From assembly GCA_964521535.1 (NCBI GenBank), contig CAZFSA010000002.1, forward strand, positions 1 to 63,193: DNA of 63,193 nt, given 5' to 3'. This DNA is from an uncultured Gemmatimonas sp. (lineage in GTDB: Bacteria > Gemmatimonadota > Gemmatimonadetes > Gemmatimonadales > GWC2-71-9). The translations under genes were made by a program, and so were the position numbers. Positions 697 to 31,808 of this stretch are shown piece by piece (within the stretch, counting starts at the first letter, position 1; every line of letters begins with the position of its first letter). A model generated the notes under the pieces. That model made no database searches, was not told the DNA's origin, and was given only the letters and a program-made list of their open reading frames with translations.

Positions 697-1146
697 TCAG
701 CGGCCACCGCGCTTCCGCTTGCCGTAGTCCGCCGCGTAGAGAAAGCCGAACGACTCGGCGCCGTCGCGGGTCCGGGTGGCGTGGTGCACGTGATGGGCCT
801 GCACCAGCCGCCGAAGGTACCCCTTCTTCGGGAGCCAGGAATGCGGCACCCGCCGGTGCACCAGGATATCGTGAAAGGCCACGTACGCCGCGCCGTACGC
901 CGTCATCCCGAGCCCCACCGGCAGGAGCCAGGGGACGCCGTGGGTCCCGAACCAGATGCAGAGGATCGACGGCACGGCGAAGAACACGGCGAAGAAGTCG
1001 TTGAGCTCGAACCGGCCGTGGCCGGGTTCGTGGTGGGAGCGGTGGAGGACCCAGAGGGGGCCGTGCATCAGGTACTTGTGGGTGAGGTGGGCGACCAGTT
1101 CCATTCCCACGAAGCTTGCGGTAAAGAGAAGCAGACCGAGCAGCAT
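697..1146 (-). CDS. crtZ: Beta-carotene (carotenoid ring) hydroxylase, fatty-acid-hydroxylase type
   Basis: Listed ORF 697..1422 trimmed to the ATG at 1146 (MLLGLLLFTASFVGME...). His boxes HKYLMH, HRSHH, HDILVH and HHVHH are typical of CrtZ. The upstream 92 codons of the ORF look non-coding. The gene is convergent with crtB, with stops 1 nt apart. Confidence 0.85.
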   Translation of the reverse strand: MLLGLLLFTASFVGMELVAHLTHKYLMHGPLWVLHRSHHEPGHGRFELNDFFAVFFAVPSILCIWFGTHGVPWLLPVGLGMTAYGAAYVAFHDILVHRRVPHSWLPKKGYLRRLVQAHHVHHATRTRDGAESFGFLYAADYGKRKRGGR

Positions 1147-1723
1147 GGGGGGAAAGGTATGCGCGCTGCCACGAGGGAACCAGCGGGGTCCCGGGCCGGA
1201 GGCGGCTGGGAGACTAGTCTGCCCCTGGGGCGAGCGGGCCGTCGCCGGGCGGCTACAAGTCGGATGGGAGGGGAACGGTACAAGCCCTTGCGGAACCAGA
1301 ACTTCGAGCCTCAGAACGTCGGCTGGCGATGCGATTGACGAGGACGGCGCTCCCCAGTCGATACTGCGGCTTCTGGCGTTGGAGCACCTCTTCCGGAGCA
1401 GGCGCCCTCGCCGGAGTGGCATGAGGAGCTATTTTCGCAACCGGGATATGGCCTGAGAGCGGCCCTGGTGTCATCTATCGCAGGCTTCGGAAGCAGGGTT
1501 CGCCAATTACCTCGCAACCAGGCCCGGCCTCTGAGCATTCCAATCGACGATAGGCCGGCCGCCACCATCCTCTGCGACGACCTCCACCGACACGACCGAT
1601 GCGCCGGATACCATACTCCTCCCCAGCCCGTGACCGCGAACCCGCACCGGGTTGGCCGCAACAGGATGCCGTCTCCGCCCGCGCCACTACCACGGTTGGC
1701 CGACGGTCCGATTGCTAGATGAC

Positions 1724-4700
1724 ATGGCGACTACCCTGAACCCCGGGGACCGCGTCCTCCTCCGCGACCGCCCGTGGCGCGTCCGCAGCATCGTGACCGG
1801 GGCTAACGACCACCGCATCCTCGAGGTCGAGGCCCTCGACGGCGACGTGCCGCGGATGCTGTCCGTCGTAACACCACCCGAGGTGCCGAGACCCCTGCCC
1901 ACCCTGGACGTCGAGTTCGATCGCTCGGGCCTCGAGTCCCTCAACGCCTGGTCGAACGCCCACCGGATCCTCGGCGCGACGCTGATCCGCGAAACCGGAC
2001 TCCTGACCGGCGCGCGCTTCGGGCGCGTGGCGCTCGAAGCATACCAGCTGGCTCCCGCGCTTCGGCTCCTGGCCAAGCCGCGACCGAGCCTCCTGGTCGC
2101 CGACGACGTGGGGCTCGGCAAGACAGTAGAAGCAGGGCTCGCTCTGCTCGAGCTGCTGGCGCGCGGCCGCGCGGACCGCACTTTGGTCGTCACTCCCCCG
2201 GGTCTCATGGACCAGTGGCACGACGAACTTCTCGAGAAGTTTGGCTTGGACTTCACCATACTCGACAACGCCGCGGGCGTGGCCCGCGTGCAGACCAGCC
2301 TACCGGCCGGCGTCAATCCCTGGGATGCACTGCCCCGGGTTATCACTTCCCTGGACTTCATCAAGAAAGAGACCGTGCGGCATCGGGCGCTGCGCAAGCG
2401 CTGGGACCTGGTGATCGTGGACGAGGCCCACGCCCTGGCGGAGTCCGGCACGCCCGACAACCCCTATCGCACCCAGCGCACCCGGCTGGGCCTCGAGCTA
2501 CGGAAAGCGAGTCGCGGCCTGATCCTGTTGACGGCAACCCCGCACAACGGCTACTCGCACTCGTTCCGCTCCCTGCTCGAACTCGTCGAACCCGTAGGGG
2601 CGACCTTCAACGGCTCGCGCGAGGACGTTCAGCGCCGGATCGACGGCGCGCGCATTCGCCGGATGAAGGCGCAGATCAAGCGGCGACTGCCGGCTGGCAA
2701 CCAGGAATCGGTGTTCCCGGTCCGGGAAGTCAGGGGCATCCCAGTCGCCGGGCTCAGCGCCGCGGAAGGCGAGCTCATGCGCAAGGTTGCTTCCTACTGT
2801 TCGCGCACGGCGCGCCAAGCGGAGGATACTGAAGCAGCCGAGCTGGTGGGCTTCGCCATGCAAATCGTCAAGAAGCGCGCGCTGTCGAGCCGGGCCGCGT
2901 TGGAGAAGACGATCGAGCACCGGCTCTCGGCGCTCAAGAAGGAGGAGGAACAGGAAGAGCCACCGGACCGCGCGGAGCTGCGCGACTTTCAGGCCGACCT
3001 GCCGCTCGGCGAGGCTGCGGCCGAGCGGACCGCCCGGCGCATCCTCAAGTCGGCAATCCCACCGGACGAGCGGCGCCGGAACCCGGAGTGCCGGCGCCTG
3101 ATTCCGCAGGGGGGCGCTGAGTGCCTGGCGTGCGGCTCCGCCGCACGACCCGCAGCCCTGTGCCGGACCTGCGGGCAGGACTTCGTCAAGGTCCGGTTCG
3201 AGGCGGCGGATGGGCTGGGCAGCGTTCCCGTCGGGACCGGCGACTTCTACAGCGACGAGCGTACGGCGTTTCTCACGCCTCGGCTCCACGAACTCGCCGC
3301 GGCGGGAGAGGAATTAGACGAGGACCAGGAGCCGGAAACCAGCAGAGGTGCCGCCAAGGCGAGGCGTGCAGCGAGCGACGTCGAGGCGAAGCTCGAGCCC
3401 GTGTCGGTATGCCTCTCCTGCGGGCGAGTCATGGAGCCGGAAGGGACCTGTCCGAGCTGCAACCGCGCCGGCACGCCCTACTTCGCTTATCGCTGGCGAA
3501 AGAAGCAGCCCCCCAAGGCCGGAATCCTCCACGTCTGCCCGGCATGCGGTGACACCTACACCAAGGGCGACATCGTCACTCCACTCCGCACCGGCACGGC
3601 CTCCACCGTAGCGACCATCGCGGCCCGCCACCTCGACCTGCTGCAGGGAGACGATCGCAAGCTCCTCATGTTCGCGGACAACCGCCAGGACGTGGCGCAC
3701 CAGGCGGGGTACACCTCCGACCGGCACCGCAACTTCGCGCTGCGTCACGTGGTGGCGCACGAAGTGGGCGCAGCGGCAGAGAGGGGCGTCTACCTTGTCG
3801 AGCTGCCGCAGCGGCTCTTCGACGAGTACAAGCGGCTCGGCATCATTCCGGCCAGAGTAACCCGACCCGAACGCGAGCGGTGGCTCGATGCCCTGACCTA
3901 CGAGGTAGCAAATGAGTTCACGCGGCACGCCCGCCAGCGGGCGTCGCTGGAGAACCTTGGATTGGTCGGCGTTGAGTACGAGTTCCTGGACGAGGTGGGA
4001 CAGGACCCGGAGTTCGTGGCGGCCGCCGCAGAAGCGGGGATGGATGGCCCCATGGCTGCGGCGGTGATTCGGGCCGTGTTGGACGTCATGCGCAAGAACC
4101 GCGCGGTGGGGTTCGATTTCTTTCGGGAGTACGTGGATCCCAACCGCAAACGGCGCTACCGCGAACTCGAAGCCGAGCCGTACGCGGTGCGTTTCCCTGA
4201 TCGGGACAGGAACCCGAAGGGATTCGCCTTGGAGCGGCCGGATCACATCCGGAAGTCAAAGGCCGGCACGATTCTCGGCTTCTACCAGGAGAACCCCAAG
4301 GCCGGGCAGCTCACGGCCGCACAGAAGATCGTGGCTCGAATTCTGGGTGGTAGTCGCGCCCGCGCCGAAGTGTTCCTGCGTGCCGTGGTACCGGTGCTGC
4401 TGCGGCTCGAGCTGCTTCAGGCTGTACCGAACTTCCCGCTTCCCAAGGCCGATCGCACGGCTTCCCTACGTGTGCTCCAGGTGAATCCCAAAGTGGTTCG
4501 GCTGGTGCGTCCCGCTGCCGGGTACCGGTGCGTCGCGTGCCAGACGTGGGTGGCCTACGAGCTGCCGACGTGCCCGACGCCCAAGTGCGCTCAAGGATGC
4601 CTGGAGCCGCGGGAGGTGGACCAAGACAACTACTACGTCAGGCTGTACGCGGATCGGCAGCCGTTGAGAGTCGTCGTGGCCGAGCACAGCGCGGCGATCA

Positions 4701-7030
4701 GCGGGGACGAGCGAGCCAAGCGGGAGACCGGGTTCAAGGAGGGCCGGGTGGATGCGCTGGTGTGTACGCCCACCTTGGAGCTCGGCGTGGATATCGGACC
4801 GCTGCTTACGGTGGTCCTGCGGAATGCCCCTCCCACTCCGGCCAACTACGTTCAGCGCGTGGGGCGCGCGGGGCGCCGGCTGAGGATCGGGTTCGTCTCC
4901 ACGTTCTGCGCCGGGGGGGCCCACGACCGGCACGCGTTCGAGAACCCCGAATGGCTCTTGGGGGGAAGCTTCACGCCGCCACGGCTCAGGCTCGACAACC
5001 CGAAGGTCGTGCACCGCCATCTTCGCTCCTACCTGCTCGCCTGCGTCCCCATCCAACTCCCACGTCTTATGGGAGAGCTGCTTGACGACGTGCGTGCGCC
5101 CACGCGATGCAAGCTCGAGCAACTGGAGGCGCTGTTCGCGGCAGTCGGGCAGGATGCTTCGAAGCTTGCCACGAGACTGGCGGGGGTGTTCGCGGAAGAT
5201 CGTGAGGCTGGCCGGACGACCGGCTTCGGTCCCGACGAGGCGCGCTCGCTCGTAGATCGGTTCGAGAGGGAGTTCCGCGACATCGTTGATCTCTGGTGGC
5301 GCCGCGTCCGCCAGCTCGACAGCGAGTTTCGGCAGTACTCGACCGTGGGCTCACCCCTCCATGACATGAAGAAAGCCGCGGCCCGGCAGCGCGCCTACCG
5401 TGAGATCACGCAGGACCCCGAGCGGGCGTACGCGCTGAACTACCTGGCCACCCAGGGCTTCCTTCCGGCCTATCAGTTTCCGCTCGACACGTTCAGCCTC
5501 GACCCCGGGGTGGCGGACACTCCGACGCTGTTCCGCCCGGCCGCGATCGCCATCGAGGAGTTTGCGCCGGGGAACTACGTGTACGCCAACGGGCACAAGC
5601 TCCGGTCCATTCGGGCGCTCTTCGCGGGTGGACCGGGGCGCTCCGGAGACCGCCCCACGCGGTCCGACGCGGAGGCCTCGGGCCGCCTCCGGTCGTTCCG
5701 CTTCTGTGATCGGTGTGATGAGATCACCGAGCAACCCCGCAACACCTGCGCTCGGTGCGAGGCGCCGTTACCGCCGGCGGTTGACTGCGTTTTCGTGGAT
5801 GCGTTCGAAGCCGAGGAGTCGTTGCGGATCGGGTCCGACGAGGAGTCGCGGCAACGGCAATACCATGTTCGCCGCGAGAGCCTGCTGGCGACTGACCAGA
5901 GCAACGTCACGCTCTTCGCGTATCCCTTCACGCCAGTCGAACTCCATCGCCTGGCGCCTGTGGTCGTCACCAACTGGGGACGACCGGACTCCAAGACCGG
6001 GGACGCCAGGCGCTTCTGGCTCTGCCCCGATTGCGGGCGGCATCTGCCTCAGGATCCGCACGATGTGGAGCATGCGAAGGCCGTCCAGACGTGGCGCGAA
6101 AACCATGCTCGACTCTGCGCGGGGGAGCCTGCTTCGCTGGTACTGGGCTATGAGTTCCGGAGTGACTGTCTGGTATTGAGCTTCCCGACCCGCGAGGATG
6201 CAAGGACTGAGGGCCGCACGACCTTGTCGCCGACGGCGGTGACCCTGGCGGAGGCACTGCTGGCCGGCGCGGGCGACCTGCTGGAACTCGAGCCCTACGA
6301 ACTGGCTGCCTTTCCCCGAAGCGCCAGGCCGGGCGACGTGGCCGACGAGGTGGTCTTTTACGAAACGGTACCAGGCGGCGCCGGTTATGTGGAGGAGATG
6401 GCGCGCCGGTTGCCCGAGGTGGCCCGTGCGGCGCAGCAGCGGCTCTATGGGCACCAGTGCCTCCGCGGTTGCTATCTGTGTCTCAAGCACTACCGCAACC
6501 AGCGCTGGCACGCCTTCTTCGACAAGGACAGCATTCGCGATCTTCTGGCGGCCATCGCCGCGATGGACCCGGTTGGGGAGGCGCCCACCGTGGCCGGCGC
6601 CGGGGCGCGGACGCTTCGAGCCGCACTGGAGGCAAGACAGGAGGAGCTTGCGCCGTCGGCCCCGGGAAGCAGGCGCACCGGACCGCAGTCGGCCATCGAG
6701 GCGCAGCTGCTGGAAGCACTGAGGTTGATCCCGGGGCTGCCGATCCCGACCATGCAATACGAAGTGCGGGACGGCGAGCGTATCATCACTGTACCGGACT
6801 TCGCATATCCGGATGCCAAGATCGCGGTGTTCTGCGACGGGTTCGCCTTTCACGGAAACCAAGACACGCTGGAACTTGACGCACGGAAGCGTAACTGGCT
6901 CCAACGGAATGGCTGGCTTGTGCTCACCTACTGGGGTAGGAGCATCCAGCAAGCCCCCGCGGTGTGTGCGCGGGAAATCGAGGCGGTATATTGGCAGCGC
7001 ACGGCTGGCGGCGGCCCCGTTGCGTGGTGA
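1724..7030 (+). CDS. Giant fused helicase-nuclease: SNF2-like N-lobe + Zn-ribbon inserts + DEAH-type helicase C-lobe + DUF1998/MrfA-type Zn module + Vsr/DUF559-like PD-(D/E)xK endonuclease
   Basis: Single ORF with ATG at 1724; the listed ORF starts at TTG 1652, but those 24 codons look non-coding. Motifs, in order:
- DDVGLGKT (2102-2125)
- VIVDEAH (2411-2431)
- LTATP (2528-2542)
- CxxC clusters (3089-3172, 3410-3460, 3536-3545, 4529-4600)
- LLMFADNRQD (3662-3691)
- VCTPTLELGVDIG (4760-4798)
- QRVGRAGRR (4853-4879)
- LATQGFLPAYQFP (5444-5482)
- CLRGCYLCLKHYRNQRWH (6458-6511)
- VPDFAYPDAKIAVFCDGFAFHG (6791-6856)
- RKRNWLQRNGWLVL. Confidence 0.9.
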   Translation: MATTLNPGDRVLLRDRPWRVRSIVTGANDHRILEVEALDGDVPRMLSVVTPPEVPRPLPTLDVEFDRSGLESLNAWSNAHRILGATLIRETGLLTGARFGRVALEAYQLAPALRLLAKPRPSLLVADDVGLGKTVEAGLALLELLARGRADRTLVVTPPGLMDQWHDELLEKFGLDFTILDNAAGVARVQTSLPAGVNPWDALPRVITSLDFIKKETVRHRALRKRWDLVIVDEAHALAESGTPDNPYRTQRTRLGLELRKASRGLILLTATPHNGYSHSFRSLLELVEPVGATFNGSREDVQRRIDGARIRRMKAQIKRRLPAGNQESVFPVREVRGIPVAGLSAAEGELMRKVASYCSRTARQAEDTEAAELVGFAMQIVKKRALSSRAALEKTIEHRLSALKKEEEQEEPPDRAELRDFQADLPLGEAAAERTARRILKSAIPPDERRRNPECRRLIPQGGAECLACGSAARPAALCRTCGQDFVKVRFEAADGLGSVPVGTGDFYSDERTAFLTPRLHELAAAGEELDEDQEPETSRGAAKARRAASDVEAKLEPVSVCLSCGRVMEPEGTCPSCNRAGTPYFAYRWRKKQPPKAGILHVCPACGDTYTKGDIVTPLRTGTASTVATIAARHLDLLQGDDRKLLMFADNRQDVAHQAGYTSDRHRNFALRHVVAHEVGAAAERGVYLVELPQRLFDEYKRLGIIPARVTRPERERWLDALTYEVANEFTRHARQRASLENLGLVGVEYEFLDEVGQDPEFVAAAAEAGMDGPMAAAVIRAVLDVMRKNRAVGFDFFREYVDPNRKRRYRELEAEPYAVRFPDRDRNPKGFALERPDHIRKSKAGTILGFYQENPKAGQLTAAQKIVARILGGSRARAEVFLRAVVPVLLRLELLQAVPNFPLPKADRTASLRVLQVNPKVVRLVRPAAGYRCVACQTWVAYELPTCPTPKCAQGCLEPREVDQDNYYVRLYADRQPLRVVVAEHSAAISGDERAKRETGFKEGRVDALVCTPTLELGVDIGPLLTVVLRNAPPTPANYVQRVGRAGRRLRIGFVSTFCAGGAHDRHAFENPEWLLGGSFTPPRLRLDNPKVVHRHLRSYLLACVPIQLPRLMGELLDDVRAPTRCKLEQLEALFAAVGQDASKLATRLAGVFAEDREAGRTTGFGPDEARSLVDRFEREFRDIVDLWWRRVRQLDSEFRQYSTVGSPLHDMKKAAARQRAYREITQDPERAYALNYLATQGFLPAYQFPLDTFSLDPGVADTPTLFRPAAIAIEEFAPGNYVYANGHKLRSIRALFAGGPGRSGDRPTRSDAEASGRLRSFRFCDRCDEITEQPRNTCARCEAPLPPAVDCVFVDAFEAEESLRIGSDEESRQRQYHVRRESLLATDQSNVTLFAYPFTPVELHRLAPVVVTNWGRPDSKTGDARRFWLCPDCGRHLPQDPHDVEHAKAVQTWRENHARLCAGEPASLVLGYEFRSDCLVLSFPTREDARTEGRTTLSPTAVTLAEALLAGAGDLLELEPYELAAFPRSARPGDVADEVVFYETVPGGAGYVEEMARRLPEVARAAQQRLYGHQCLRGCYLCLKHYRNQRWHAFFDKDSIRDLLAAIAAMDPVGEAPTVAGAGARTLRAALEARQEELAPSAPGSRRTGPQSAIEAQLLEALRLIPGLPIPTMQYEVRDGERIITVPDFAYPDAKIAVFCDGFAFHGNQDTLELDARKRNWLQRNGWLVLTYWGRSIQQAPAVCAREIEAVYWQRTAGGGPVAW

Positions 7031-7041
7031 ATGGGCGAGGC

Positions 7042-8277
7042 TCAGAGCCGCTCGAACCGCCTGGCCAGGACCCGCGCCACGGCGAGCGCGCCAAGCCCAG
7101 CCGCCAGCAGCAGCCCCACCGGCAGCTGCACTGCGGCCAGGGGCTCATCGCGCCAGAAGAGTGCGCTGTACGCCTCGACCCCCCAGGTGGTGGGCGTCAG
7201 CCATCCCACCTGCTGGAGCACCGGGGGCATCAGGAACCGGGGCACCATGGCCCCGCCAACCGCCGAGATCACCAGGATCGCGATGTTGGACAGCGTCTGT
7301 GCCTGCCGCCGGGTCCGGCACGCCAGGGTGAGCGCCATCGCCAGCCCGGCCGCGGCGAGCGAGGCGGCGAGCGTCACCACCGCGAACGCCGGCAGCCGGG
7401 CGAAGAGCGGCACCTCGTAAAGCGCCCACGCCACCAGGAAGATCACCGTCACCTGAAGCGCGCCCTGCACCACCAGAAACAGGAACTTGCCGCCCACCAC
7501 GGCCCCCATCCCCCCGGGCCCGGCCAGCAGCCGGTCGAGCAGCCCCGAGTCCCGCTCTTCCAGGACGGAGAGCGCGCCGTGCACGGCCGAGAAGAGCAGG
7601 AAGAGCAGCGCCACGGCACCGGCGTAGTAGGCTACGTGGCTCCGCGCCAGCCCCGGTCCACCGACCGGCTCGCGGACCGTGAGTCCGTCGAAAGGACTCT
7701 CGGCGCCCGCCTCGGCCGAGTCGGCGGTGATCTCGTCCCTGAGCTCGCCGAAGCGTTCGTCCAGTTGCTGGAGCTGGTCGTCGGTGTACTCGATGAACCC
7801 CCGGCCGAGCAGCTCCGCCACGCTCTGGAGCGCCACGTCGGGCAGGGCCGAGAAGTAGGCGTTCTGCACCTGGCCGGTGAGCACCCGGGCCGCCACGGCC
7901 CGCACCGGGTCGACCACGATGGCGATCGGGGCGGGGCCGTCGCCGGTGAGGTCCGCGACCGGCCGCGCCTCTGCCCGGATCACGAGCCCGGCGTCGGCCG
8001 CGCCGCGGCGCACCCGCTGGTAAACCTCGGCGGACGGGATCGGTCCAGTCACATCGAGCGCGGCGTCCCGGGCCAGCGCCCGGAGCAGCCGGATCGACTC
8101 CGGCGACCGCTGCTCATCGGCCACGGCCACCGCGATCCGGAGCTGCTCGCCGGAGGCGCCGGCGAAGATCGCGGCGAACACCAGGAACACCGCCACCGGG
8201 AGCACTACGCTCATCGCCAGCGCCGCGCGGTCGCGCAGGAACGCAAGGGCCATTGCCCGGAACACGACGCCGATCAC
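7042..8277 (-). CDS. ABC-2 type transporter permease
   Basis: 411 aa. It has an N-terminal TM segment, a large extracytoplasmic loop and a C-terminal multi-TM ABC-2 domain. There is a 4-nt overlap with the upstream ATPase gene, which suggests translational coupling. Confidence 0.8.
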   Translation of the reverse strand: MIGVVFRAMALAFLRDRAALAMSVVLPVAVFLVFAAIFAGASGEQLRIAVAVADEQRSPESIRLLRALARDAALDVTGPIPSAEVYQRVRRGAADAGLVIRAEARPVADLTGDGPAPIAIVVDPVRAVAARVLTGQVQNAYFSALPDVALQSVAELLGRGFIEYTDDQLQQLDERFGELRDEITADSAEAGAESPFDGLTVREPVGGPGLARSHVAYYAGAVALLFLLFSAVHGALSVLEERDSGLLDRLLAGPGGMGAVVGGKFLFLVVQGALQVTVIFLVAWALYEVPLFARLPAFAVVTLAASLAAAGLAMALTLACRTRRQAQTLSNIAILVISAVGGAMVPRFLMPPVLQQVGWLTPTTWGVEAYSALFWRDEPLAAVQLPVGLLLAAGLGALAVARVLARRFERL

Positions 8278-20466: not shown

Positions 20467-22134
20467 TTGCTCAAACGGGCCCCGCGCGCCGACCTGCCCC
20501 GGGTAGCCTATCTCCTGCAAGGCCAGCTCCGTCCGCCATTCGAAGGAGTGGAGGTCGGCGCCGGCGAGCGGTTGCTGGCCCGGGCCATCGCCCAGGCGGG
20601 CGGCGTCCCGGACGCAACCGTGGCCGCGACCTACCGGCGAACGGGAGATCTGGGATCCACGGCCCAGGCGCTCATCCGGACCCAGCCCCGGCGACGGCTC
20701 GCGGTGAAGGAGGCCTACGACGCCTTGCTCGCTGTGGCCCGTAGCGCAGGGGTCGGCGCCGTCGAGCGCAAGGTTGGCCTGCTGGCCCGGCTCCTCCGCC
20801 ATGCCGACCCCGCCGAGGCCCGGTATCTGGTTCGGATCGCGCAGGGCCGCCTCCGCCTGGGCGTCGGCGATTCCACCGTGATCGAGGCCACGGCCGCCGC
20901 CGCGTTCGGCGATCGCCGCCGAAAGGCCATGGTGGAGCACGCCTACAACGTCCGGTCCGATCTCGGCGAGGTGGTCCGCCTGGCGTTTGCCCGCGGATCG
21001 CGGGGCCTGGAACGGATTGCGCCCCGGGTTGGGGTGCCAGTGCGCCCGGCCCTGGCCCAGCGGCTTCGGTCGGCGCGGGCCATCGTGGAGCGGCTCGGCA
21101 CGGTCCAGGCCGAGCCCAAGTACGACGGCCTCCGGGTCCAGGTGCACCGCAAGGGCGATCGGGTCTGGATCTTCACGCGCCGGCTGGAGAACGTCACTGC
21201 CATGTTCCCGGAGCTGGAGGCTGCGGCCCGCCGGCAGCTGCGGGCCCGCGAGGCGATTCTGGAGGGCGAAGCCATCGCGTACGACCCCCGGACCGGGCGG
21301 TTCCTTCCCTTCCAGGTCACCATCACCCGCAAGCGGCGTCACGGTGTCTCCGAGGCCGCTCGGCGATACCCGCTCAAGCTTTTCGCGTTCGATCTGCTCG
21401 CGCTTGGCGGCCGGGACTGCCTGGCTCTTCCCCTCAGGGAACGGCGCCGCCGGCTCGTGGCTGCGCTCCGGACCGCTCCGGACGCCCCCGTGCAGGTGGC
21501 CGAGGCGCTGGTGACCAACGAGGTACAGGAGCTGGAGGCCTGGTATCGGACCATGCTCCGGCGCGGGCTCGAGGGCATCGTCGCCAAGCGGCCCGACGCG
21601 CCGTATCGCGCCGGGGCGCGCGGCTTCGACTGGATCAAGCTCAAGCGGGTGGATCGTTCGCGGCTCAGCGACACGGTCGACCTGGCGCTGGTAGGCTACC
21701 TGAGGGGCCGGGGCAAGCGCGCCGCCCTTGGCATCGGCTCGCTGCTCGCCGCGGTCTACGATCCCGAGGGGGATCGCTTCCGGACCGTGGCGAAGATCGG
21801 CTCCGGACCTTCGGACGCCGAATGGCGTTCGCTCCGTGCAGCGCTCGACCGCCGCGCCACGCCCGGGCCGCCGCGCCGGGTGGACTCCCGGATCGTGGCG
21901 GACGTCTGGAGCGAGCCCCGGATGGTGGTGGAAGTCCTGGCCGACGAGATCACCCGGTCGCCCCGGCATACCTGCGGCGCGACCGGCGGAGGTACGGGCT
22001 ACGCGCTCCGCTTCCCCCGGATGCTGGGCGTCCGGCGGGACCGGGCGCCGGAGGACGCGACGACCGAGCGCGAGATCCTGGAGCTCTTCCGGCTGCAACG
22101 CTCCGCGAGCCCGGCGGAAACCGGGCGAGCCTGA
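20467..22134 (+). CDS. lig: ATP-dependent DNA ligase (Lig1/LigB-like, with N-terminal DNA-binding domain)
   Basis: Adenylation motif EPKYDGLRVQVHR, plus nucleotidyltransferase and OB-fold regions. The listed ORF starts at TTG 20467. Ligase-like N-terminal sequence (RFPFRHLAQAFAELEGTTSRLASIEIVARLL) continues in frame upstream to about 20377 with no ATG/GTG/TTG, so the true 5' end is uncertain. Confidence 0.85.
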   Translation: MLKRAPRADLPRVAYLLQGQLRPPFEGVEVGAGERLLARAIAQAGGVPDATVAATYRRTGDLGSTAQALIRTQPRRRLAVKEAYDALLAVARSAGVGAVERKVGLLARLLRHADPAEARYLVRIAQGRLRLGVGDSTVIEATAAAAFGDRRRKAMVEHAYNVRSDLGEVVRLAFARGSRGLERIAPRVGVPVRPALAQRLRSARAIVERLGTVQAEPKYDGLRVQVHRKGDRVWIFTRRLENVTAMFPELEAAARRQLRAREAILEGEAIAYDPRTGRFLPFQVTITRKRRHGVSEAARRYPLKLFAFDLLALGGRDCLALPLRERRRRLVAALRTAPDAPVQVAEALVTNEVQELEAWYRTMLRRGLEGIVAKRPDAPYRAGARGFDWIKLKRVDRSRLSDTVDLALVGYLRGRGKRAALGIGSLLAAVYDPEGDRFRTVAKIGSGPSDAEWRSLRAALDRRATPGPPRRVDSRIVADVWSEPRMVVEVLADEITRSPRHTCGATGGGTGYALRFPRMLGVRRDRAPEDATTEREILELFRLQRSASPAETGRA

Positions 22135-26977: not shown

Positions 26978-28273
26978 CTACTTCACGCGAACGATCTTGA
27001 GCCCGCCGAGGCCCCCCGCCACCAGGAGATGCTTGGCCCGGTAGGCCACATGGTTGGCGGACTGGAGCCGGGCGAACCGAAGCCGGCCGAGCACCGCGAT
27101 CGTCTGGGGCGCTTCGCTGCCGGTCGACGAGAAGGCGGTGGCGCCCTGGGCCAGGTAGACGCCCGCCTCGCCGTTCGAGATGAACAGCAGGTCGTCCTCC
27201 GCCGACACCGCATTGGTCACGACCACCGAGGGCGACAGGCCCAGCTCCGCCGGATCCGGGCGGGGTACCGAGCCCAGCAGCGCGCCGGTTACCGTGCTCA
27301 GCACCTGCACCCCTGCCGGGCCCGCGGCGAGGAACGCCTTCCCGCCGGCCACCTCGACCGTGGACTTCGACTCGGCCACGTCGGCGCCCTGAAAGGGGAA
27401 GGTGCCCAGGCTGGACAGCGTCGCCTCGTCAAGGACGGCCAGCCGGCCCGGGGTACCCTGCGCCACAAGAACCCGACCGCCCGCGACAGCCACCCATCGG
27501 GCGTCGTCCATCGGAAGGAACCGGACCAGCGTCAGCGAACTGCGGTCCAGCACGAAGAGACCCCCACCATCGCCCGCGGTGGCATAGACCCGGTTGCCCG
27601 AGGCGGTAACACCCGTCCCGGCATAGCTGGAAAGCCCGGCACGGCGACTGGCCGCGCCGGCCAACACGCTGCCCCGCAGCTCGAGCAGGTCCAGCGCCGC
27701 CGGGGCCTCCAGCGACTCGTCGCCGGTCGCACCAGCCAGCAGCACGTCGCCGCCGAGCACGTCGACCGCGTTGACATCCATGTTCTTGTAGAGCGCCTGC
27801 GACTTGAGGACCGGCCGGCTTTCGTTGGTGATGTCGATCACGTCCACCCCACCCAGGTACGGCTCGCCGATCATCGCGTAACTCACGACCGCGAGGTTGC
27901 CCCGGACCGCCACGGACGTGGCCTGAAGAAGCTGTCCGCCGATCGAAGGTGGCGCGATCTCCGCCGTCAACTCCAGCGACGGGGCAAGCATGGCCGACTG
28001 ACTGCCACCAGCCCAGCCGCTGGTGGCCGCAGCCCTGGAGTACCCGACGCCGACCTGGTCCACCTGGACCACCTCGGCGTGGTAGGTGATCCGGCTGGCG
28101 AAGGCAGCCGGATCGCTGGTGATCGAGACGTGGGCGTCAGAGTAGTCCGGCGGCGGGGCCGGCGGCGCCACCGGCCCGGTGGAGTCGCCGCACGCCGCCA
28201 GGAGGACTGGCAGCATGCAGCCCGCGACTACGAGACGCAACCGGCTGAAAGCCAAAGGCCATCCCCTGAGCAT
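26978..28273 (-). CDS. Beta-propeller lipoprotein (LVIVD-repeat-like)
   Basis: Signal/lipobox MLRGWPLAFSRLRLVVAGCMLPVLLAACG. Repeated ~40-aa units are present (NLAVVSY..., DVLLAGA..., NRVYATA..., GRVLVAQ..., GKAFLAA..., DLLFISN..., KHLLVAG...). An alternative start lies at 28216. Confidence 0.65.
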   Translation of the reverse strand: MLRGWPLAFSRLRLVVAGCMLPVLLAACGDSTGPVAPPAPPPDYSDAHVSITSDPAAFASRITYHAEVVQVDQVGVGYSRAAATSGWAGGSQSAMLAPSLELTAEIAPPSIGGQLLQATSVAVRGNLAVVSYAMIGEPYLGGVDVIDITNESRPVLKSQALYKNMDVNAVDVLGGDVLLAGATGDESLEAPAALDLLELRGSVLAGAASRRAGLSSYAGTGVTASGNRVYATAGDGGGLFVLDRSSLTLVRFLPMDDARWVAVAGGRVLVAQGTPGRLAVLDEATLSSLGTFPFQGADVAESKSTVEVAGGKAFLAAGPAGVQVLSTVTGALLGSVPRPDPAELGLSPSVVVTNAVSAEDDLLFISNGEAGVYLAQGATAFSSTGSEAPQTIAVLGRLRFARLQSANHVAYRAKHLLVAGGLGGLKIVRVK

Positions 28274-31088
28274 TCACGGACCTCAGGGATGGCAAGTCCC
28301 GTTCCCAGCTGAACGAGCACCCGGAATGCACGCCCTTGCACCTCCGGGCCTTCGAGCCTGGGGGCGAGCCTCGCCCCACCATTCCGCCGGCTCCCAGCCG
28401 GTACGGAAGGGCATCGGCAGCGCGCCCTGCCTGCGACCCGCCGGTGGCGCGGTTGGAGCGATCCAGCCCGGCGAGCCGCCTCGTGGCCAGCGCCGACAGC
28501 ACGGGCCAGGTCTCGAAATCGGGATCGGGGATCCGGAACCGCTCCACCGCGCGGTACAGCTCCGCCGCGCGGCCGCGGTCACCGGCAAGCATCGCCACGT
28601 CCGCCTCGAACAAGGCCACTGTGCTGGTCGACCGCCCGTGGAAGGTCTCCTCCCGGCTCGCCGCGAGATGCCAGGCGGCCTCGGCAGGCCGCCCCTCAAG
28701 TGCGGCCCGGGCGCCCGCCACCGTACGCAGAGCGAGACTGTAACTCCTGAGGCCGCGGCCGGCATCGAGAAGGCGAAGGGCAGCGCCCTCCGCCGTGACC
28801 AGCCGGTGATCGCGAAGCCACGCGCCCAGGATCGCCACCCGCTCGTGAAGCCGGGCGAGGGCCGCCGCCGAGAGGTCGGCGCGGTCCACCCAGGCCTTTG
28901 CCTCCCACGCCAGCCTGCGGGCGCCCCCGGTGTCGCCCGCCGCGCTCTCGGCGATGGCCTGGAGAATCAGAGCGCGTACCGCGAACTGGCGCGGCGGCAC
29001 GATGCGAGCGAGCTCGGGAATCATCGCCCGGGCTTCCTCCAGCCGGCCCAGCGCCAGGGTCGGCGCGTGCCGGCGGTAGTCCCGGCGGCGGGCGGCGTCG
29101 TCTGCCGGGAGACCCTGGAGCGTGGAATCGAGCACCGCGAGCGCGCCCGGCCAGTCGCGGCGGATCAGCGCCGTGAGGTACCTCGCCTCGTGGTAGGGCC
29201 GGGGGTCACGCGCCGCCAGCGCGCCAGTGACGGCGAGGGCCGCAGCTGTATCGCCGACCGAGATCAGGGCGTAGAGCCGGTTGTTGATCGCCGGGACCCC
29301 CGCCGACGGGTCGAGCTGGTAGGCGGTGTCGGCTGCCGCGGCCGCGGCCCGATGCTGACCGAGCGCCCGAAGGGTCCAGGCCATCCCCTCATAGGCCAGC
29401 ACCTCGTTCGGGTACGCGCTCCGAAGCTGCAGGTAGTTGGCGAGCGCGCTGTCGGGACGATCGGCGACCAGCTGGTAATACCGCGCCCCCACCAGCAGCC
29501 GCTCACGGATCGGGGCCAGATCGGCCAGCGCCCGCGCGCGGGTGAGGTGCGTCTCGGCATGGCGCTGCTCGTCGGCCCACCAGAGGAGGTCACCCACGAG
29601 GTAATGGGCCAGGGGAAAGAGGCTGTCGTGCGCGAGGGCTCCCTCGCCCAGCGCAAGCGCCGCCGGCCGGTCGCCGCGGGCGAGCGCCACCCGGGCGAGG
29701 GCATACTGTTCCAGCGCCTCGAGGGAGGCGGTGGTGACCGCAGGGAGCGGCCGAGCCGCCGAGTCCACGGGTAGCCTGCTCAGCTTGGCCCGAAGCTTCC
29801 GGGCCACGCGGCCCACTTCGGCGATCACCTGATCGGCCCGTTCCGGGCGGGCGCTCACCGTAACCACGGGGCTCCGGGCGCGTGAGGGCACAACCTGGAT
29901 CACCAGCTGCAAGCCCCCGGCCAGCGGCGCCACGCTGCCCGTGATTGCGTATTGCGCGCCGTGCCGCTCGGCGACGTCCAGCACCACGGGCGGAGTGAGG
30001 CGGGTGGTGGGCGGTAGCTGCATCAGGGCCAGCACCTCCCGGATCCGGAACTCGTCCACCAGACGGATCCCACCGTCACCGGCGAGCTCAGCCCGGAGGG
30101 CCTCTCGCACGGCCATCGCCATCACGGAGTCGGCGCCCGCCAACTCCCCGAGCACCGCAACCCGGGGTGCGGCGGGAGCGTGTGACAGGAAGCGCGGCAG
30201 CACGAGGCCGACGGCGAGCCCAGCCGCGGCCACCGCCAGCACCAGGCTCGACTTCCGGGTCCCGCTCCCCCGCCGCGGGCGCAGTCCCGATCCCAGGGCG
30301 TCGGCGGAGCGTCCCGCAGGCTCTACGGCCGGCGTGGCGCTCGCACCTACGGCTACCGGCTCCGGTCCACCCGGCGGCGGTGCCAGGCGGAGCTGCCCCG
30401 CGAACCCCTCCACCGCCGGATCCGGCTCGGCATCCAGCTCGGCACGGAGCAGTTCGGCGTGAACGCGGGCGTGCCGGATGGCGGCGGCGCGGTCGCCGGC
30501 GGCGCTCAACGCCTCCATCAGTGAGAGCGTCACCCGGGCATCGAGGGGATCGAGCGCCGCCCGGCGGCGCCACCACCTGGCTGCCACCGCGTGATCGCCG
30601 GCCGTGGCGGCGCGGGTGGCGAGCGCTTCCAGCGCCTCTGCCATCGCCGCCGCCAGCTCGCTCCGCTCGGCTTCCACCCACCGATCAAACTCGGGAGCAC
30701 CGTCGATGAAGAACCCGTCCAGGAAGGGACCCGCGTAGATCGAGACCGCCCGCTCGGGATCGCCTCGCTTGAGCGCGGCGCGCAGCTCGCGCACATCCGA
30801 CCGGACGATCGCAGGATCGAGCCTGAGCTCGTCGACGCCGGCCATGATCGCCGCCTCGCCCAGGTCCCGCCGGAGCGCCGACAGCAGCTGCGAGAGCGAG
30901 TGCCGTCCCCGCTCCTCGTCCCGTTCCGGCCAGAGCAGCGCGACGATCTTGTCGCGGCGTACCGGTCGCTCGTCAGCAGCCGCGAGGTAGGCGAGCAGCG
31001 CCAGGCGGCGGCGCTGGGTGGCCCGGCCCTCGAGCGGCCGACCGTCCCGCTCCAGGGAGATACCGCCCAAGGTCCTGAGCCGGAACAT
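28137..31088 (-). CDS. SARP/BTAD-family transcriptional regulator with TM segment and C-terminal TPR array
   Basis: Trimmed to ATG 31088 (MFRLRTLGGISLERDGRPLEG...). Domains, in order:
- Winged-helix OmpR/SARP domain (RRRLALLAYLAA..., LWPERDEERGRHSLSQLLSALRR).
- BTAD domain (...RAVSIYAGPFLDGF...EAER).
- Hydrophobic segment SSLVLAVAAAGLAVGLVL.
- About 600 aa of TPR-like helices.
The last ~100 codons are low-complexity and overlap the next gene. Confidence 0.8.
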   Translation of the reverse strand: MFRLRTLGGISLERDGRPLEGRATQRRRLALLAYLAAADERPVRRDKIVALLWPERDEERGRHSLSQLLSALRRDLGEAAIMAGVDELRLDPAIVRSDVRELRAALKRGDPERAVSIYAGPFLDGFFIDGAPEFDRWVEAERSELAAAMAEALEALATRAATAGDHAVAARWWRRRAALDPLDARVTLSLMEALSAAGDRAAAIRHARVHAELLRAELDAEPDPAVEGFAGQLRLAPPPGGPEPVAVGASATPAVEPAGRSADALGSGLRPRRGSGTRKSSLVLAVAAAGLAVGLVLPRFLSHAPAAPRVAVLGELAGADSVMAMAVREALRAELAGDGGIRLVDEFRIREVLALMQLPPTTRLTPPVVLDVAERHGAQYAITGSVAPLAGGLQLVIQVVPSRARSPVVTVSARPERADQVIAEVGRVARKLRAKLSRLPVDSAARPLPAVTTASLEALEQYALARVALARGDRPAALALGEGALAHDSLFPLAHYLVGDLLWWADEQRHAETHLTRARALADLAPIRERLLVGARYYQLVADRPDSALANYLQLRSAYPNEVLAYEGMAWTLRALGQHRAAAAAADTAYQLDPSAGVPAINNRLYALISVGDTAAALAVTGALAARDPRPYHEARYLTALIRRDWPGALAVLDSTLQGLPADDAARRRDYRRHAPTLALGRLEEARAMIPELARIVPPRQFAVRALILQAIAESAAGDTGGARRLAWEAKAWVDRADLSAAALARLHERVAILGAWLRDHRLVTAEGAALRLLDAGRGLRSYSLALRTVAGARAALEGRPAEAAWHLAASREETFHGRSTSTVALFEADVAMLAGDRGRAAELYRAVERFRIPDPDFETWPVLSALATRRLAGLDRSNRATGGSQAGRAADALPYRLGAGGMVGRGSPPGSKARRCKGVHSGCSFSWERDLPSLRSVNAQGMAFGFQPVASRSRGLHAASPPGGVRRLHRAGGAAGPAAGLL

Positions 31089-31154
31089 CTTGCGCGCGGT
31101 TGACGATAGCCGGAGAGATGGATGACCGGCGACTTCTATCATACCGGCCGAACC

Positions 31155-31195
31155 GGGGGGGCAGCAAGCAGAGCCCGACGGGGCTCTCCCCCCCC
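31155..31195 (+). promoter_or_regulatory. Structured 5' leader element upstream of the PCC-module operon
   Basis: A G7 run (31155-31161) and a C8 run (31188-31195) flank a perfect hairpin, AGAGCCC-GACG-GGGCTCT (31170-31187). The element ends 8 nt before the GGAGG RBS (31203-31207) of the gene starting at 31215. Confidence 0.35.
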
Positions 31196-31214
31196 ACGAA
31201 TCGGAGGTCACCGC

Positions 31215-31775: not shown

Positions 31776-31808
31776 GGGGTGCAAAACCGCGCGAACAGCC
31801 ACCCCTCA
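31773..31808 (+). terminator. Intra-operon stem-loop (attenuator / partial terminator candidate)
   Basis: Perfect 9-bp stem TGAGGGGTG (31773-31781, includes the stop codon) / CACCCCTCA (31800-31808) with an 18-nt loop. It lies in the 64-nt gap between the first and second operon genes. No U tract. Confidence 0.35.

What the first reader, a model, noticed from the sequence alone, without database searches (positions are those of the whole stretch)
1724..7030. Stand-alone 1,768-aa fusion of SNF2-like lobe, DEAH C-lobe, DUF1998/MrfA Zn module and Vsr-like endonuclease: candidate single-gene defence (or repair) helicase-nuclease
What is seen: one uninterrupted ORF carries, in order:
- A ~110-aa N-terminal domain.
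- An SNF2-type RecA lobe 1: DDVGLGKT 2102-2125, VIVDEAH 2411-2431, LTATP 2528-2542.
- A Cys-rich insert.
- LLMFADNRQD (3662-3691).
- A second insert.
- Helicase motifs V/VI: VCTPTLELGVDIG 4760-4798 and QRVGRAGRR 4853-4879.
- A DUF1998-like region, from LATQGFLPAYQFP (5444-5482) to the terminal CLRGCYLCLKHYRNQRWH cluster (6458-6511).
- A C-terminal Vsr/DUF559-like nuclease (6689-6976).

Established knowledge:
- DUF1998 helicases are the cores of DISARM (DrmA/DrmB) and Druantia (DruE), and of the MrfA repair helicase.
- SNF2 helicases occur in DISARM class 1 (DrmD).
- To my recollection, helicase plus Vsr-endonuclease fusions define the Hhe defence gene of Gao et al. 2020, but on an SF1 scaffold.

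Inference: here these modules are combined in one polypeptide. There is no adjacent methyltransferase, PLD nuclease, DruH-like or other partner gene. The gene is wedged between carotenoid and ABC-transporter genes. I do not recognise this architecture as a described system. A self-contained translocase that senses and cleaves foreign DNA is the most attractive hypothesis. A dedicated DNA-repair enzyme is the alternative.
Basis: partly seen in the sequence, partly recalled or inferred. Interest (0 to 1): 0.85.

Follow-up and report, generated by a model that had tools for sequence, protein, structure and literature searches.

The report
Deletion-fused remnant of an ARMADA defence locus
The giant "all-in-one" helicase-nuclease gene is real, but it is a one-off in-frame splice of two neighbouring genes of a recently described anti-phage system (ARMADA) that lost its middle, including the methyltransferase, so it is most likely a fresh relic rather than a new single-gene immune system.

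Summary
It is not a recurrent architecture.

- Residues 1-452 are 86% identical to the N-terminal half of ~1004-aa SNF2/BrxHII-like helicases.
- Residues 453-1768 are 84% identical to residues 450-1761 of ~1750-aa YprA-like helicase-Vsr nucleases.
- The DNA junction lies at nt 3080/3081, in frame, at about 2 nt of microhomology.

In relatives from many phyla the two parent genes are separate, in the order SNF2 - PglX/DrmMI-like methyltransferase - YprA helicase. Bell et al. 2025 list the closest relatives' records as ARMADA Type I.

The window therefore lacks the methyltransferase, SNF2 lobe 2 and the Walker A/B lobe of the YprA helicase. In E. coli ARMADA Type II, each gene and these Walker motifs are essential for defence.

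No other hybrid turned up in 5.8 billion protein clusters, 1.84 billion representatives or two DNA collections. A relative with 96% identical flanking protein lacks the whole 5.9-kb segment.

The ORF shows no decay: all 323 family-invariant residues are kept and dN/dS is about 0.07-0.11.

Best reading: a recent deletion relic. Rivals: a functional lobe-swapped hybrid, or an assembly artefact.

The parts
1161..7041 (.). Strain-specific segment of 5881 bp. It replaces 904 bp that carry a 207-aa SAM methyltransferase gene in the closest relative.
   Evidence: blastn: window 2-1160 matches L087 5301-4143 at 92.4%, and window 7042-10279 matches L087 3238-1 at 95.6%. Nothing between is shared. L087 gene list; boundary sequences.
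1161..1723 (.). Upstream part of the inserted segment, 563 bp, with no convincing coding signal and no match to any fetched locus.
   Evidence: The ORFs here have non-coding codon-position GC. blastn against all fetched loci finds nothing beyond the L087 flank. No sigma-70-like promoter or terminator.
1724..7030 (+). Fused ORF of 1768 aa, uninterrupted. GC3 is 0.82, against 0.83-0.94 for the seven filter-passing ORFs within about 5 kb on either side.
1724..3079 (+). armA-derived part (aa 1-452): N-terminal domain, SNF2 RecA lobe 1 and the helical region before lobe 2. Lobe 1 carries Walker A GLGKT (2102-2125), DEAH (2411-2431) and TATP (2528-2542). SNF2 lobe 2 and the C-terminal domain are missing.
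   Evidence: 86% identity to P0055 aa 1-452 of 1004. PADLOC DrmD 6.5e-78 over aa 4-415. Pfam SNF2-rel_dom aa 120-290. In full-length P0055 the lobe-2 matches begin at aa 453-465.
3080..3081 (+). Deletion junction ('AA'). It is in frame, between codon 452 (CGG, Arg) and codon 453 (AAC, Asn). The parental sequences share only an imperfect GCCnCAA microhomology.
   Evidence: blastn: window 1736-3081 matches the L002 SNF2 gene and window 3080-6999 matches the L002 YprA gene. Base-by-base view.
3080..7027 (+). armC-derived part (aa 453-1768), equal to residues 450-1761 of ARMADA Type I YprA-like helicases. Missing: the N-terminal strand, RecA lobe 1 with Walker A/B, the BrxA-like insert, the conserved PRLRPKLHTFFHG segment and the invariant Cys448.
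   Evidence: 84% identity over 1314 aa to P0002. Invariant columns of family A. Domain order from Bell et al. 2025.
3080..3640 (+). Cys-rich insert (the zinc-binding beta-barrel module of Bell et al.), now lacking its first invariant cysteine.
   Evidence: Family invariants C448, C453, C464, C467, C477, C480, C559, C562, C572, C575, C601 and C604. The window sequence begins at NPEC. Extent is inferred.
4667..4876 (+). RecA lobe 2 core of the YprA helicase (Helicase_C), with motifs V and VI at 4760-4798 and 4853-4879.
   Evidence: Pfam PF00271, aa 982-1051, 45.4 bits. Motifs verified.
5444..6511 (+). OB-CON-DUF1998 canopy region, ending in the four-Cys MZB cluster (Pfam MZB aa 1508-1587 = nt 6245-6484).
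   Evidence: Pfam PF09369, 37.2 bits. PADLOC DruE1 3.8e-79 over aa 1005-1609. Module naming.
6689..6976 (+). Vsr-type PD-(D/E)xK nuclease domain, with family-invariant D1692, D1705, H1710 and K1722 intact.
   Evidence: Sub-threshold Pfam MTES_1575 and DUF559. AF2 model pLDDT 87. Foldseek 3r3p and 3hrl, probability at least 0.99. Invariants. Bell et al. call this domain a predicted active Vsr nuclease.
697..1104 (-). Left flank: fatty-acid-hydroxylase-family gene. By comparison with the relative it is probably 135 aa; the ORF extension to 1422 runs into the inserted DNA.
   Evidence: Pfam hit lies in aa 102-227 of the 241-aa ORF. The L087 gene is 135 aa. Homology stops at window 1160.
7042..8277 (-). 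Right flank: ABC-2 permease. Its stop codon abuts the inserted segment, 11 bp after the fused ORF's stop.

Best explanation
The ORF is a relic of a Type I ARMADA anti-phage locus.

The ancestral arrangement, as seen in relatives, was:
- armA, a BrxHII/RapA-like SNF2 helicase of about 1004 aa
- armB, a PglX/DrmMI-like methyltransferase of about 1400 aa
- in the Gemmatimonadales relatives, an embedded cassette of other defence genes
- armC, a YprA-like helicase of about 1760 aa with a C-terminal Vsr nuclease

One illegitimate-recombination deletion of roughly 7-10 kb joined armA codon 452 to armC codon 450, in frame, at about 2 nt of microhomology. (Shown: the two-part homology and the junction. 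Inferred: that a single event made it.)

The product keeps:
- the ArmA N-terminal domain and RecA lobe 1
- ArmC from its zinc module onward: lobe 2, the OB-CON-DUF1998 canopy and the Vsr nuclease

It has lost:
- the methyltransferase
- ArmA lobe 2
- the ArmC N-terminal strand, Walker A/B lobe and BrxA-like insert
- one zinc-ligand cysteine

In E. coli ARMADA Type II each gene, and the Walker motifs of ArmA and ArmC, are required for defence. So the locus is predicted to have no ARMADA activity. (This step is inferred.)

The reading frame is still clean because the event is young. A close relative lacks the whole 5.9-kb segment, so the acquisition itself is recent.
For: Two-part homology and precise junction:
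- Window aa 1-452 are 86% identical to P0055 aa 1-452, and window aa 453-1768 are 84% identical to P0002 aa 450-1761.
- At DNA level the homology switches at nt 3080/3081.

The parents are separate genes of one conserved system:
- L001 has SNF2 (1004 aa), then a DrmMI-like methyltransferase (PADLOC 2.9e-107), then a cassette, then the YprA helicase of 1761 aa.
- L012 is a clean three-gene operon.
- The order SNF2, methyltransferase, YprA helicase recurs in 26 fetched loci from many phyla.

Published classification:
- Supplement 1 of Bell et al. lists DATLYZ010000010.1 (L003, holding P0003, 83% identical), DATMAW010000158.1 (L006), JABLWX010000081.1, DASRFY010000064.1, JACRLX010000022.1 and BTVJ01000041.1 as 'ARMADA Type I helicase'.
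- The system is defined.
- Every E. coli Type II gene, ArmA K136/D236, ArmC K110/D234 and the ArmB NPPW motif are essential for defence.

The hybrid is unique:
- Its 90%-identity cluster holds one member on one contig, and all other top hits cover only 26% or 67-79% of the query.
- A junction-specific DNA pattern finds nothing in metagenome or genome collections.
- A junction-spanning query against 1.84 billion representatives finds no hybrid. The few alignments that cross the junction are ordinary YprA proteins.

The missing parts are absent from the whole window.

The segment is strain-specific: window 1161-7041 is absent from a relative with 92-96% identical flanks.

Relatives show parallel erosion: L002 has a truncated armA (748 aa) and no armB.
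Against: - The ORF shows no decay over 5.3 kb. All 217 family-A and 106 family-B invariant residues in the retained parts are kept.
- dN/dS against relatives is 0.07-0.11, the same as among intact relatives.
- Lineage-unique substitutions in the YprA part are not in excess. The SNF2 part has more than its peers (21 against 1-15), which may only reflect the window being the outgroup of that set.
- The junction is in frame. It falls close to the boundary between the two RecA lobes in both parents, so the product has a complete set of helicase motifs and nearly the parental ArmC length. The native start and stop codons are both kept, although the flanks are tight.

A selected, working hybrid would also give these features.

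The essentiality data come from E. coli Type II, not Type I.

Without reads, I cannot show that the junction exists in the organism.
Confidence: 0.66

Rival explanations
1. Functional hybrid. The deletion produced a working lobe-swapped SF2 motor: SNF2 RecA lobe 1 from ArmA pairs with RecA lobe 2, the DUF1998 canopy and the Vsr nuclease of ArmC. This methyltransferase-independent helicase-nuclease is kept by selection, as a single-gene defence or for another DNA transaction.
For: - The 5.3-kb ORF is intact, all 323 family-invariant residues are kept, and dN/dS is about 0.07-0.11.
- The junction is in frame, next to the inter-lobe boundary in both parents.
- Walker A/B, motifs V/VI, the MZB cysteines and the nuclease residues are all present.
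- armC-type genes persist without an adjacent intact armA and armB in relatives L002 and L004. So a YprA-Vsr protein without a nearby methyltransferase is tolerated.
Against: - It is a singleton in every collection searched.
- The two lobes come from different SF2 families that never co-evolved.
- The ArmC N-terminal strand, which Bell et al. describe as inserted into the RecA2 sheet, is lost. So are the conserved segment before the zinc module and the invariant Cys448.
- In E. coli ARMADA Type II, ArmC's own Walker A/B, ArmA and ArmB are each essential.
- dS to the nearest relatives is saturated (above 1), so the low dN/dS mostly reflects evolution before the fusion.
Confidence: 0.12
2. Artefact. 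The join at 3080/3081 was made during sequencing or assembly, for example by a chimeric read or a minority deletion variant. The organism actually carries a complete armA-armB-armC locus.
For: - Both halves look exactly like functional genes.
- The window is a metagenome-style contig, and its exact protein is not on record elsewhere.
Against: - The parental sequences share only about 2-7 nt at the junction. That is far too little for a k-mer graph misjoin.
- The contig runs continuously through conserved chromosomal flanks on both sides.
- Similar erosion of ARMADA loci is seen in independent assemblies of relatives.
Confidence: 0.14
3. This is a genuine, evolved single-polypeptide architecture of a new defence or repair family, with homologs that share the domain order.
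For: The domain series is real, and no partner genes flank it.
Against: - No homolog shares the domain order. Every relative is either SNF2-only or YprA-only.
- The sharp switch of homology at one nucleotide position shows recent chimerism.
- The segment is absent from a close relative, which argues against a housekeeping repair role.
Confidence: 0.03

Closest known systems
ARMADA Type I (disARM-related Antiviral Defense Array; Bell et al. 2025, bioRxiv 10.1101/2025.09.15.676423, PMC12458937)
   Same: - Both halves of the ORF are 83-86% identical to the SNF2 (BrxHII/RapA-like) and YprA-like helicase-Vsr genes of loci whose records that paper lists as ARMADA Type I.
- The Vsr-type C-terminal nuclease, the zinc modules and the OB-CON-DUF1998 canopy match the published domain description.
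   Different: - There is one fused ORF instead of three genes.
- The methyltransferase, SNF2 lobe 2 and YprA lobe 1 are deleted.
- In the loci I fetched the gene order is armA-armB-armC. The paper describes that order for Type II and for some Type I.
DISARM class 1 (DrmD SNF2 helicase, DrmMI methyltransferase, DrmA helicase, DrmB DUF1998 protein, DrmC PLD nuclease)
   Same: - The N-terminal part hits DrmD models (PADLOC 6.5e-78; NCBIfam DISARM_DrmD 4.1e-78).
- The relatives' methyltransferase hits DrmMI (2.9e-107).
- The system logic of helicase, DUF1998 and nuclease is shared.
   Different: - The NCBIfam DrmD score is 263.7, far below the cut-off of 610. Even the full-length parent scores 491.
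- The helicase and DUF1998 parts are fused, not split into DrmA and DrmB.
- The nuclease is Vsr-type, not PLD.
- DrmA models hit the YprA parent only weakly (about 1e-17).
Druantia DruE (large YprA-family helicase)
   Same: - The best PADLOC matches of the C-terminal part and of the intact parent are DruE models: DruE1 at 3.8e-79 for the window and 5e-139 for P0002.
- The closest solved structures by sequence are 9tu7 (2108 aa) and 9wae (1970 aa). Their PDB titles say only 'helicase'; taking them as Druantia-type is my assumption.
   Different: - No DruH or DruA-D partner genes are present.
- The C-terminal nuclease is Vsr-type, whereas Druantia III DruE has PLD-like domains.
- The relatives sit with an SNF2 helicase and a methyltransferase instead.
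MrfA/YprA DNA-repair helicase (PDB 6ZNP)
   Same: The MZB/DUF1998 zinc domain and the YprA-type helicase core are shared (Pfam PF09369; PDB hit 6znp at 2.9e-32 for the parent).
   Different: - The protein belongs to the defence branch of the YprA family, not the repair branch.
- There is no MrfB partner.
- The segment is strain-specific.
Hhe
   Same: It pairs a helicase with a Vsr-like nuclease in one polypeptide.
   Different: - Hhe is not among the 25 best of 58 PADLOC matches.
- The scaffold here is SF2 (SNF2 and DEAD/YprA), not SF1.
- The nuclease fusion here is inherited from ARMADA ArmC.

Membership tests
ARMADA Type I system | The YprA-like helicase sequence belongs to the ARMADA clade and carries a C-terminal Vsr-type nuclease. 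| tested here: met
   Window aa 453-1768 are 83-84% identical to P0002 and P0003. P0003's record DATLYZ010000010.1 is listed as 'ARMADA Type I helicase'. Vsr-like fold.
ARMADA Type I system | The YprA helicase core is complete: N-terminal strand, RecA1 with Walker A/B, BrxA-like insert. | tested here: not met
   Parental residues 1-449 are absent from the ORF and from the whole window. The ArmC Walker A/B motifs are essential in E. coli Type II.
ARMADA Type I system | A separate, complete BrxHII/RapA-like SNF2 helicase gene (ArmA). | tested here: not met
   Only aa 1-452 of about 1004 are present, fused to ArmC. The C-terminal 552 aa, including lobe 2, are absent.
ARMADA Type I system | A PglX-like DNA methyltransferase gene (ArmB). 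| tested here: not met
   tblastn with the L001 methyltransferase finds nothing in the 63-kb window. The neighbours are carotenoid and ABC-transporter genes.
DISARM class 1 | DrmD equivalog score at or above the curated NCBIfam cut-off. | tested here: not met
   NF038317 scores 263.7 bits against a cut-off of 610, covering only aa 6-424.
DISARM class 1 | Separate DrmA helicase and DrmB DUF1998 genes, plus a DrmC PLD nuclease and a DrmM methyltransferase. | tested here: not met
   Helicase lobe 2 and DUF1998 lie in one ORF. There is no PLD hit and no methyltransferase.
Druantia (types I-III) | A DruE helicase together with DruH or DruA-D / DruM-F-G partner genes. | tested here: not met
   DruE models match only aa 985-1613. 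None of the flanking genes is a large Druantia-type partner by Pfam. They were not scanned against PADLOC.
MrfA/YprA repair helicases | A conserved housekeeping context or MrfB partner, and membership of the repair branch. | tested here: not met
   The closest relatives are classified in the defence branch. The segment is absent from a relative with 92-96% identical flanks. No exonuclease partner lies nearby.
Hhe (Gao et al. 2020) | A match to the Hhe model, on an SF1 helicase scaffold. | tested here: inconclusive
   Hhe is not among the 25 best of 58 PADLOC matches shown. The Pfam helicase domains are SF2. The remaining 33 matches were not displayed.

The most novel reading that the evidence does not exclude
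A natural lobe swap: an accidental deletion created a working hybrid SF2 motor. SNF2 RecA lobe 1 pairs with YprA RecA lobe 2, the DUF1998 canopy and the Vsr nuclease. The hybrid acts without a methyltransferase, as a self-contained helicase-nuclease, and is held by selection. That would explain why a 5.3-kb ORF with tight flanks shows no decay.
Probability: 0.1. Interest if true: 0.8.

Novelty: new variant of a known kind. Interest (0 to 1): 0.3.

Why it matters
As a relic, it is a clean snapshot of how multi-gene restriction-like defence loci fall apart. One deletion removes the modification gene and cripples both motors together, which avoids a stage where restriction acts without modification.

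It is also a warning for annotation and discovery pipelines. A long, intact, multi-domain ORF can be a days-old chimera rather than a new architecture. Checking whether homologs share the domain order settles the question quickly.

If the hybrid were active, it would show that RecA lobes from different SF2 families are interchangeable in nature. It would also give a minimal ARMADA-derived effector.

Tried and rejected
- **Conserved fusion family.** Rejected. The 5.8-billion-cluster search and the 1.84-billion-representative search with a junction-spanning query gave only SNF2-only or YprA-only proteins. Four candidates were read:
  - P0284 is an ordinary YprA fragment, and P0281 and P0292 are full YprA proteins. 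Their alignments merely run on across the junction.
  - P0243 is an ArmA-ArmB read-through, a different fusion.
- **Other copies of the junction.** A degenerate 32-nt pattern for the peptide DERRRNPECRR found no match in JGI metagenome contigs or GTDB genomes. The window's own record is not in those collections either, so this is weaker than it looks.
- **Exact-protein look-up.** Nothing is on record.
- **Relaxed selection.** Invariant residues, pairwise dN/dS and lineage-unique substitutions gave no signal. dS above 1 means dN/dS cannot isolate the period after the fusion.
- **Mobile-element marks.** I found no tRNA genes in the window, no promoter or terminator consensus upstream, and no similarity of 1161-1723 to any fetched locus. 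I did not run a repeat search across the two boundaries.
- **DISARM membership.** Considered and rejected on curated cut-offs and on gene content.
- **Structure of the whole chimera.** Not attempted. The tool returns no inter-domain confidence, so it could not show whether the two foreign lobes cooperate.
Full report

Yes. An uninterrupted ORF runs from the ATG at 1724 to the stop at 7028-7030, giving 1768 aa. The longest form starts at TTG 1652.

Pfam supports three domains above the gathering score:

| Domain | Residues | Score |
|---|---|---|
| SNF2-rel_dom | 120-290 | 47 bits |
| Helicase_C | 982-1051 | 45.4 bits |
| MZB/DUF1998 | 1508-1587 | 37.2 bits |

The C-terminal nuclease is below the Pfam cut-offs (MTES_1575 23.3 against 38.2; DUF559 18.8 against 20.6). 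I therefore modelled aa 1601-1768 on an alignment of relatives. The model has mean pLDDT 87.

Its best PDB fold matches are the I-Bth0305I homing-endonuclease catalytic domain (3r3p, probability 1.00, target TM 0.71) and the DUF559 protein 3hrl (probability 0.99). The Foldseek E-values are modest, at 0.012 and 0.076. That both are Vsr-like folds is my own knowledge. The family-invariant D1692, D1705, H1710 and K1722 are present.

The neighbours are as described:
- phytoene synthase
- a fatty-acid-hydroxylase-family gene
- an ABC-2 permease
- an ABC ATPase

**2. What the ORF is made of**

PADLOC and NCBIfam split the protein in two:
- aa 4-415 match DrmD models (6.5e-78; NCBIfam DISARM_DrmD 263.7 bits, cut-off 610).
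- aa 985-1613 match Druantia DruE models (3.8e-79).

The homology search across 5.8 billion clusters made the reason plain. The exact architecture is a singleton, with one member on one contig. All other strong hits fall into two families:
- Family A: proteins of about 1750 aa with DEAD, MZB and MTES_1575 domains. They cover 67-79% of the query, the C-terminal part.
- Family B: SNF2 helicases of about 1004 aa. They cover 26%, the N-terminal part.

Pairwise alignment gives 86% identity of window aa 1-452 to P0055 aa 1-452. It gives 84% identity of window aa 453-1768 to P0002 aa 450-1761.

At DNA level, window 1736-3081 aligns to the SNF2 gene of locus L002 and window 3080-6999 aligns to its family-A gene. 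The switch is at the dinucleotide AA at 3080/3081. There the two parental sequences share only an imperfect GCCnCAA. The join is in frame.

**3. What the parents are**

In relatives the two families are separate genes of one locus.
- **L001** (JGI contig, 16 kb) has the following:
  - the SNF2 gene (1004 aa)
  - a 1392-aa methyltransferase overlapping it by 4 nt (PADLOC DrmMI 2.9e-107)
  - four opposite-strand genes: a 147-aa protein with no Pfam match, a ThsB-type TIR protein, DUF3368 and an HTH plus M78 peptidase
  - the 1761-aa family-A gene
- **L012** (Acidobacteria MAG) is a clean operon of SNF2, methyltransferase and family A, followed by a Septu PtuAB pair.

A scan of GTDB genomes with a family-A alignment returned 80 loci. 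tblastn shows the order SNF2, methyltransferase, family A in 26 loci. These span Gemmatimonadales, Gamma- and Betaproteobacteria, Acidobacteria, Binatia, Streptomyces, Micromonospora, Nostoc, Planctomycetota, Lachnospiraceae and others.

The literature search led to Bell et al. 2025 (PMC12458937). They define ARMADA as three components:
- a YprA-like helicase with a C-terminal predicted active Vsr nuclease
- a BrxHII/RapA-like SNF2 helicase
- a PglX-like methyltransferase

Their YprA helicases are closest to Druantia DruE. Their Supplement 1 lists six of my fetched records as 'ARMADA Type I helicase'. These include DATLYZ010000010.1, which is L003 and encodes P0003 (83% identical to the window's C-terminal part), and DATMAW010000158.1, which is L006. 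So the parents are armA-like and armC-like genes of a Type I ARMADA locus.

**4. What was lost**

By comparison with L001, L002 and L012, the deletion spans roughly 7-10 kb. It removed:
- ArmA residues 453-1004. Lobe-2 matches in the intact parent start at aa 453-465.
- The whole methyltransferase, and any embedded cassette.
- ArmC residues 1-449.

In Bell et al.'s domain scheme, ArmC 1-449 holds the N-terminal strand that inserts into the RecA2 sheet, RecA1 with Walker A/B, and the BrxA-like insert. The conserved segment PRLRPKLHTFFHGVYDVxLC lies just before the zinc beta-barrel. I infer that this segment is the start of RecA2.

The join falls between the family-invariant Cys448 and Cys453, so one zinc ligand is gone. 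None of the missing parts is found elsewhere in the 63-kb window.

In the E. coli Type II system, deleting any gene abolishes defence. So do the ArmA K136A and D236N, ArmC K110A and D234N, and ArmB N971A mutations. By that standard the window's locus cannot be a working ARMADA. This extrapolates from Type II to Type I.

**5. Genomic setting**

The closest homolog of the flanking permease (P0121, 96% identical) lies on a 5.9-kb Logan contig, L087.
- Window 2-1160 matches L087 at 92.4%.
- Window 7042-10279 matches L087 at 95.6%.
- Window 1161-7041 has no counterpart. L087 carries 904 bp with a 207-aa SAM methyltransferase gene there.

So the fused ORF, 563 bp upstream of it and 11 bp downstream form a strain-specific segment in an otherwise ordinary chromosomal region. 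Its GC3 (0.82) is below that of the ORFs flanking it (0.83-0.94). This argues against a housekeeping repair role and fits a horizontally acquired defence element that has since been trimmed.

Relatives show similar erosion and rearrangement:
- L002 has a truncated armA (748 aa) and no armB.
- In one JGI contig, armB and armC are 22.7 kb apart.

**6. Relic, working hybrid or artefact?**

The surprising point is that the chimera looks healthy.
- It keeps all 217 family-A and all 106 family-B invariant residues in the retained parts.
- dN/dS against relatives is 0.07-0.11, as among intact relatives.
- Lineage-unique substitutions are unremarkable in the YprA part. They are somewhat higher in the SNF2 part (21 against 1-15), which may only reflect the window being the outgroup of that set.

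dS to the nearest relatives exceeds 1, so these measures mostly describe the time before the fusion. What they do show is that little neutral time has passed since. My rough estimate is that a 5.3-kb ORF drifting neutrally would be disrupted within well under 1% divergence.

The join is in frame and lies near the inter-lobe boundary in both parents. The product therefore has one complete set of helicase motifs and nearly the parental ArmC length. That is why it read as a designed architecture.

The three readings, with my confidence in each:

| Reading | For | Against | Confidence |
|---|---|---|---|
| Recent deletion relic | Uniqueness, loss of genetically essential parts, structural damage at the join, erosion in relatives | No decay | 0.66 |
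| Selected, active lobe-swapped hybrid | No decay, junction placement | Singleton status; the two lobes never co-evolved; missing RecA2 elements and one zinc ligand | 0.12 |
| Assembly or sequencing artefact | Both halves look functional | Only 2-7 nt shared at the junction; flanks continuous | 0.14 |

I give it 0.03.

**7. Comparison and verdict**

The thing works like nothing in particular. Most probably it does not work. By descent it belongs to ARMADA Type I, but it fails three of the four features I take as defining ARMADA, so I file it as a deletion-derived variant, not as a member system.

DISARM class 1 and Druantia are the next nearest relatives and fail on curated scores and gene content.

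Interest is modest. It is a tidy example of defence-locus decay and a caution against reading long intact multi-domain ORFs as new architectures. There is a small chance of a genuinely interesting natural lobe swap.

Noticed in passing
L001 7044-9818; L002 4044-9994; L003 254-3402; L006 8435-9691: In the Gemmatimonadales ARMADA loci, an opposite-strand module sits between armB and armC. It always includes an HTH_3 plus Peptidase_M78 (ImmA/IrrE-like) gene and, except in L006, a DUF3368 gene. Variable cargo rides with it: a ThsB-type TIR protein in L001 and a SAVED-domain protein in L002. In L002 and L003, an unannotated gene of about 280 aa with no Pfam or PADLOC match lies directly upstream of armC. 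This may be a conserved regulator or accessory of this ARMADA subgroup.
   Followed up: partly
L002 1718-3964: A relative carries a truncated armA (748 aa) and no armB next to an intact 1761-aa armC, with an IS110 transposase just downstream. This is an independent case of ARMADA erosion. It also shows that armC persists without an adjacent methyltransferase.
   Followed up: partly
L086 10001-18751 and L004 10001-15244 (same JGI record Ga0187892_10000150): The ARMADA locus is split. An AAA_21 ATPase and a 209-aa gene are inserted between armA and armB. armC lies 22.7 kb downstream of armB, beyond other island genes (an adenosine-deaminase-domain giant protein, DUF87, SLFN/AlbA_2).
   Followed up: no
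L001 15286-15666: The gene overlapping the stop codon of armC in L001 matches the DUF499/HmaC anti-phage ATPase (PADLOC HmaC 6e-21; NCBIfam DUF499_antiphage). This could be an ARMADA-Hma hybrid locus or just an adjacent system. The contig ends inside the gene.
   Followed up: no
P0243 (1609 aa, from the representative library): This protein joins a full-length ArmA-like SNF2 helicase to the N-terminal part of a PglX-like methyltransferase. It is a different fusion of ARMADA genes, perhaps a read-through or frameshift.
   Followed up: no
window 697-1422 (-): The 241-aa fatty-acid-hydroxylase ORF is probably over-extended. The relative's gene is 135 aa, and homology to it stops at window 1160. 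The true gene is likely 697-1104, and the 5' extension runs into the inserted DNA.
   Followed up: partly
L087 3377-4000: At the site occupied by the fused ORF, the closest relative carries a 207-aa class-I SAM methyltransferase (Methyltransf_11/25/31). A more distant relative (L088) has a sigma-70/anti-sigma pair, DoxX and CMD genes at the site. So the spot downstream of the ABC-2 permease is a variable hotspot.
   Followed up: partly
window 20467-22134 (+): An ATP-dependent DNA ligase (DNA_ligase_A_N/M/C) lies 13 kb from the finding, among amidohydrolase and beta-lactamase-family genes. I did not check whether a ligase-associated helicase or exonuclease set accompanies it.
   Followed up: no
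window 28137-31802 (-): A 1221-aa ORF whose only Pfam match is a BTAD transcriptional-activator domain (aa 329-466). Most of the protein is unassigned.
   Followed up: no
window aa 338-452 against YprA proteins P0281, P0284, P0292: HMMER alignments of three YprA proteins run on across the junction. They pair the ArmA helical region after lobe 1 with the BrxA-like region of YprA at 30-45% overall identity. This is probably alignment run-on in charged helical sequence, but a real similarity between the two inserts was not excluded.
   Followed up: no
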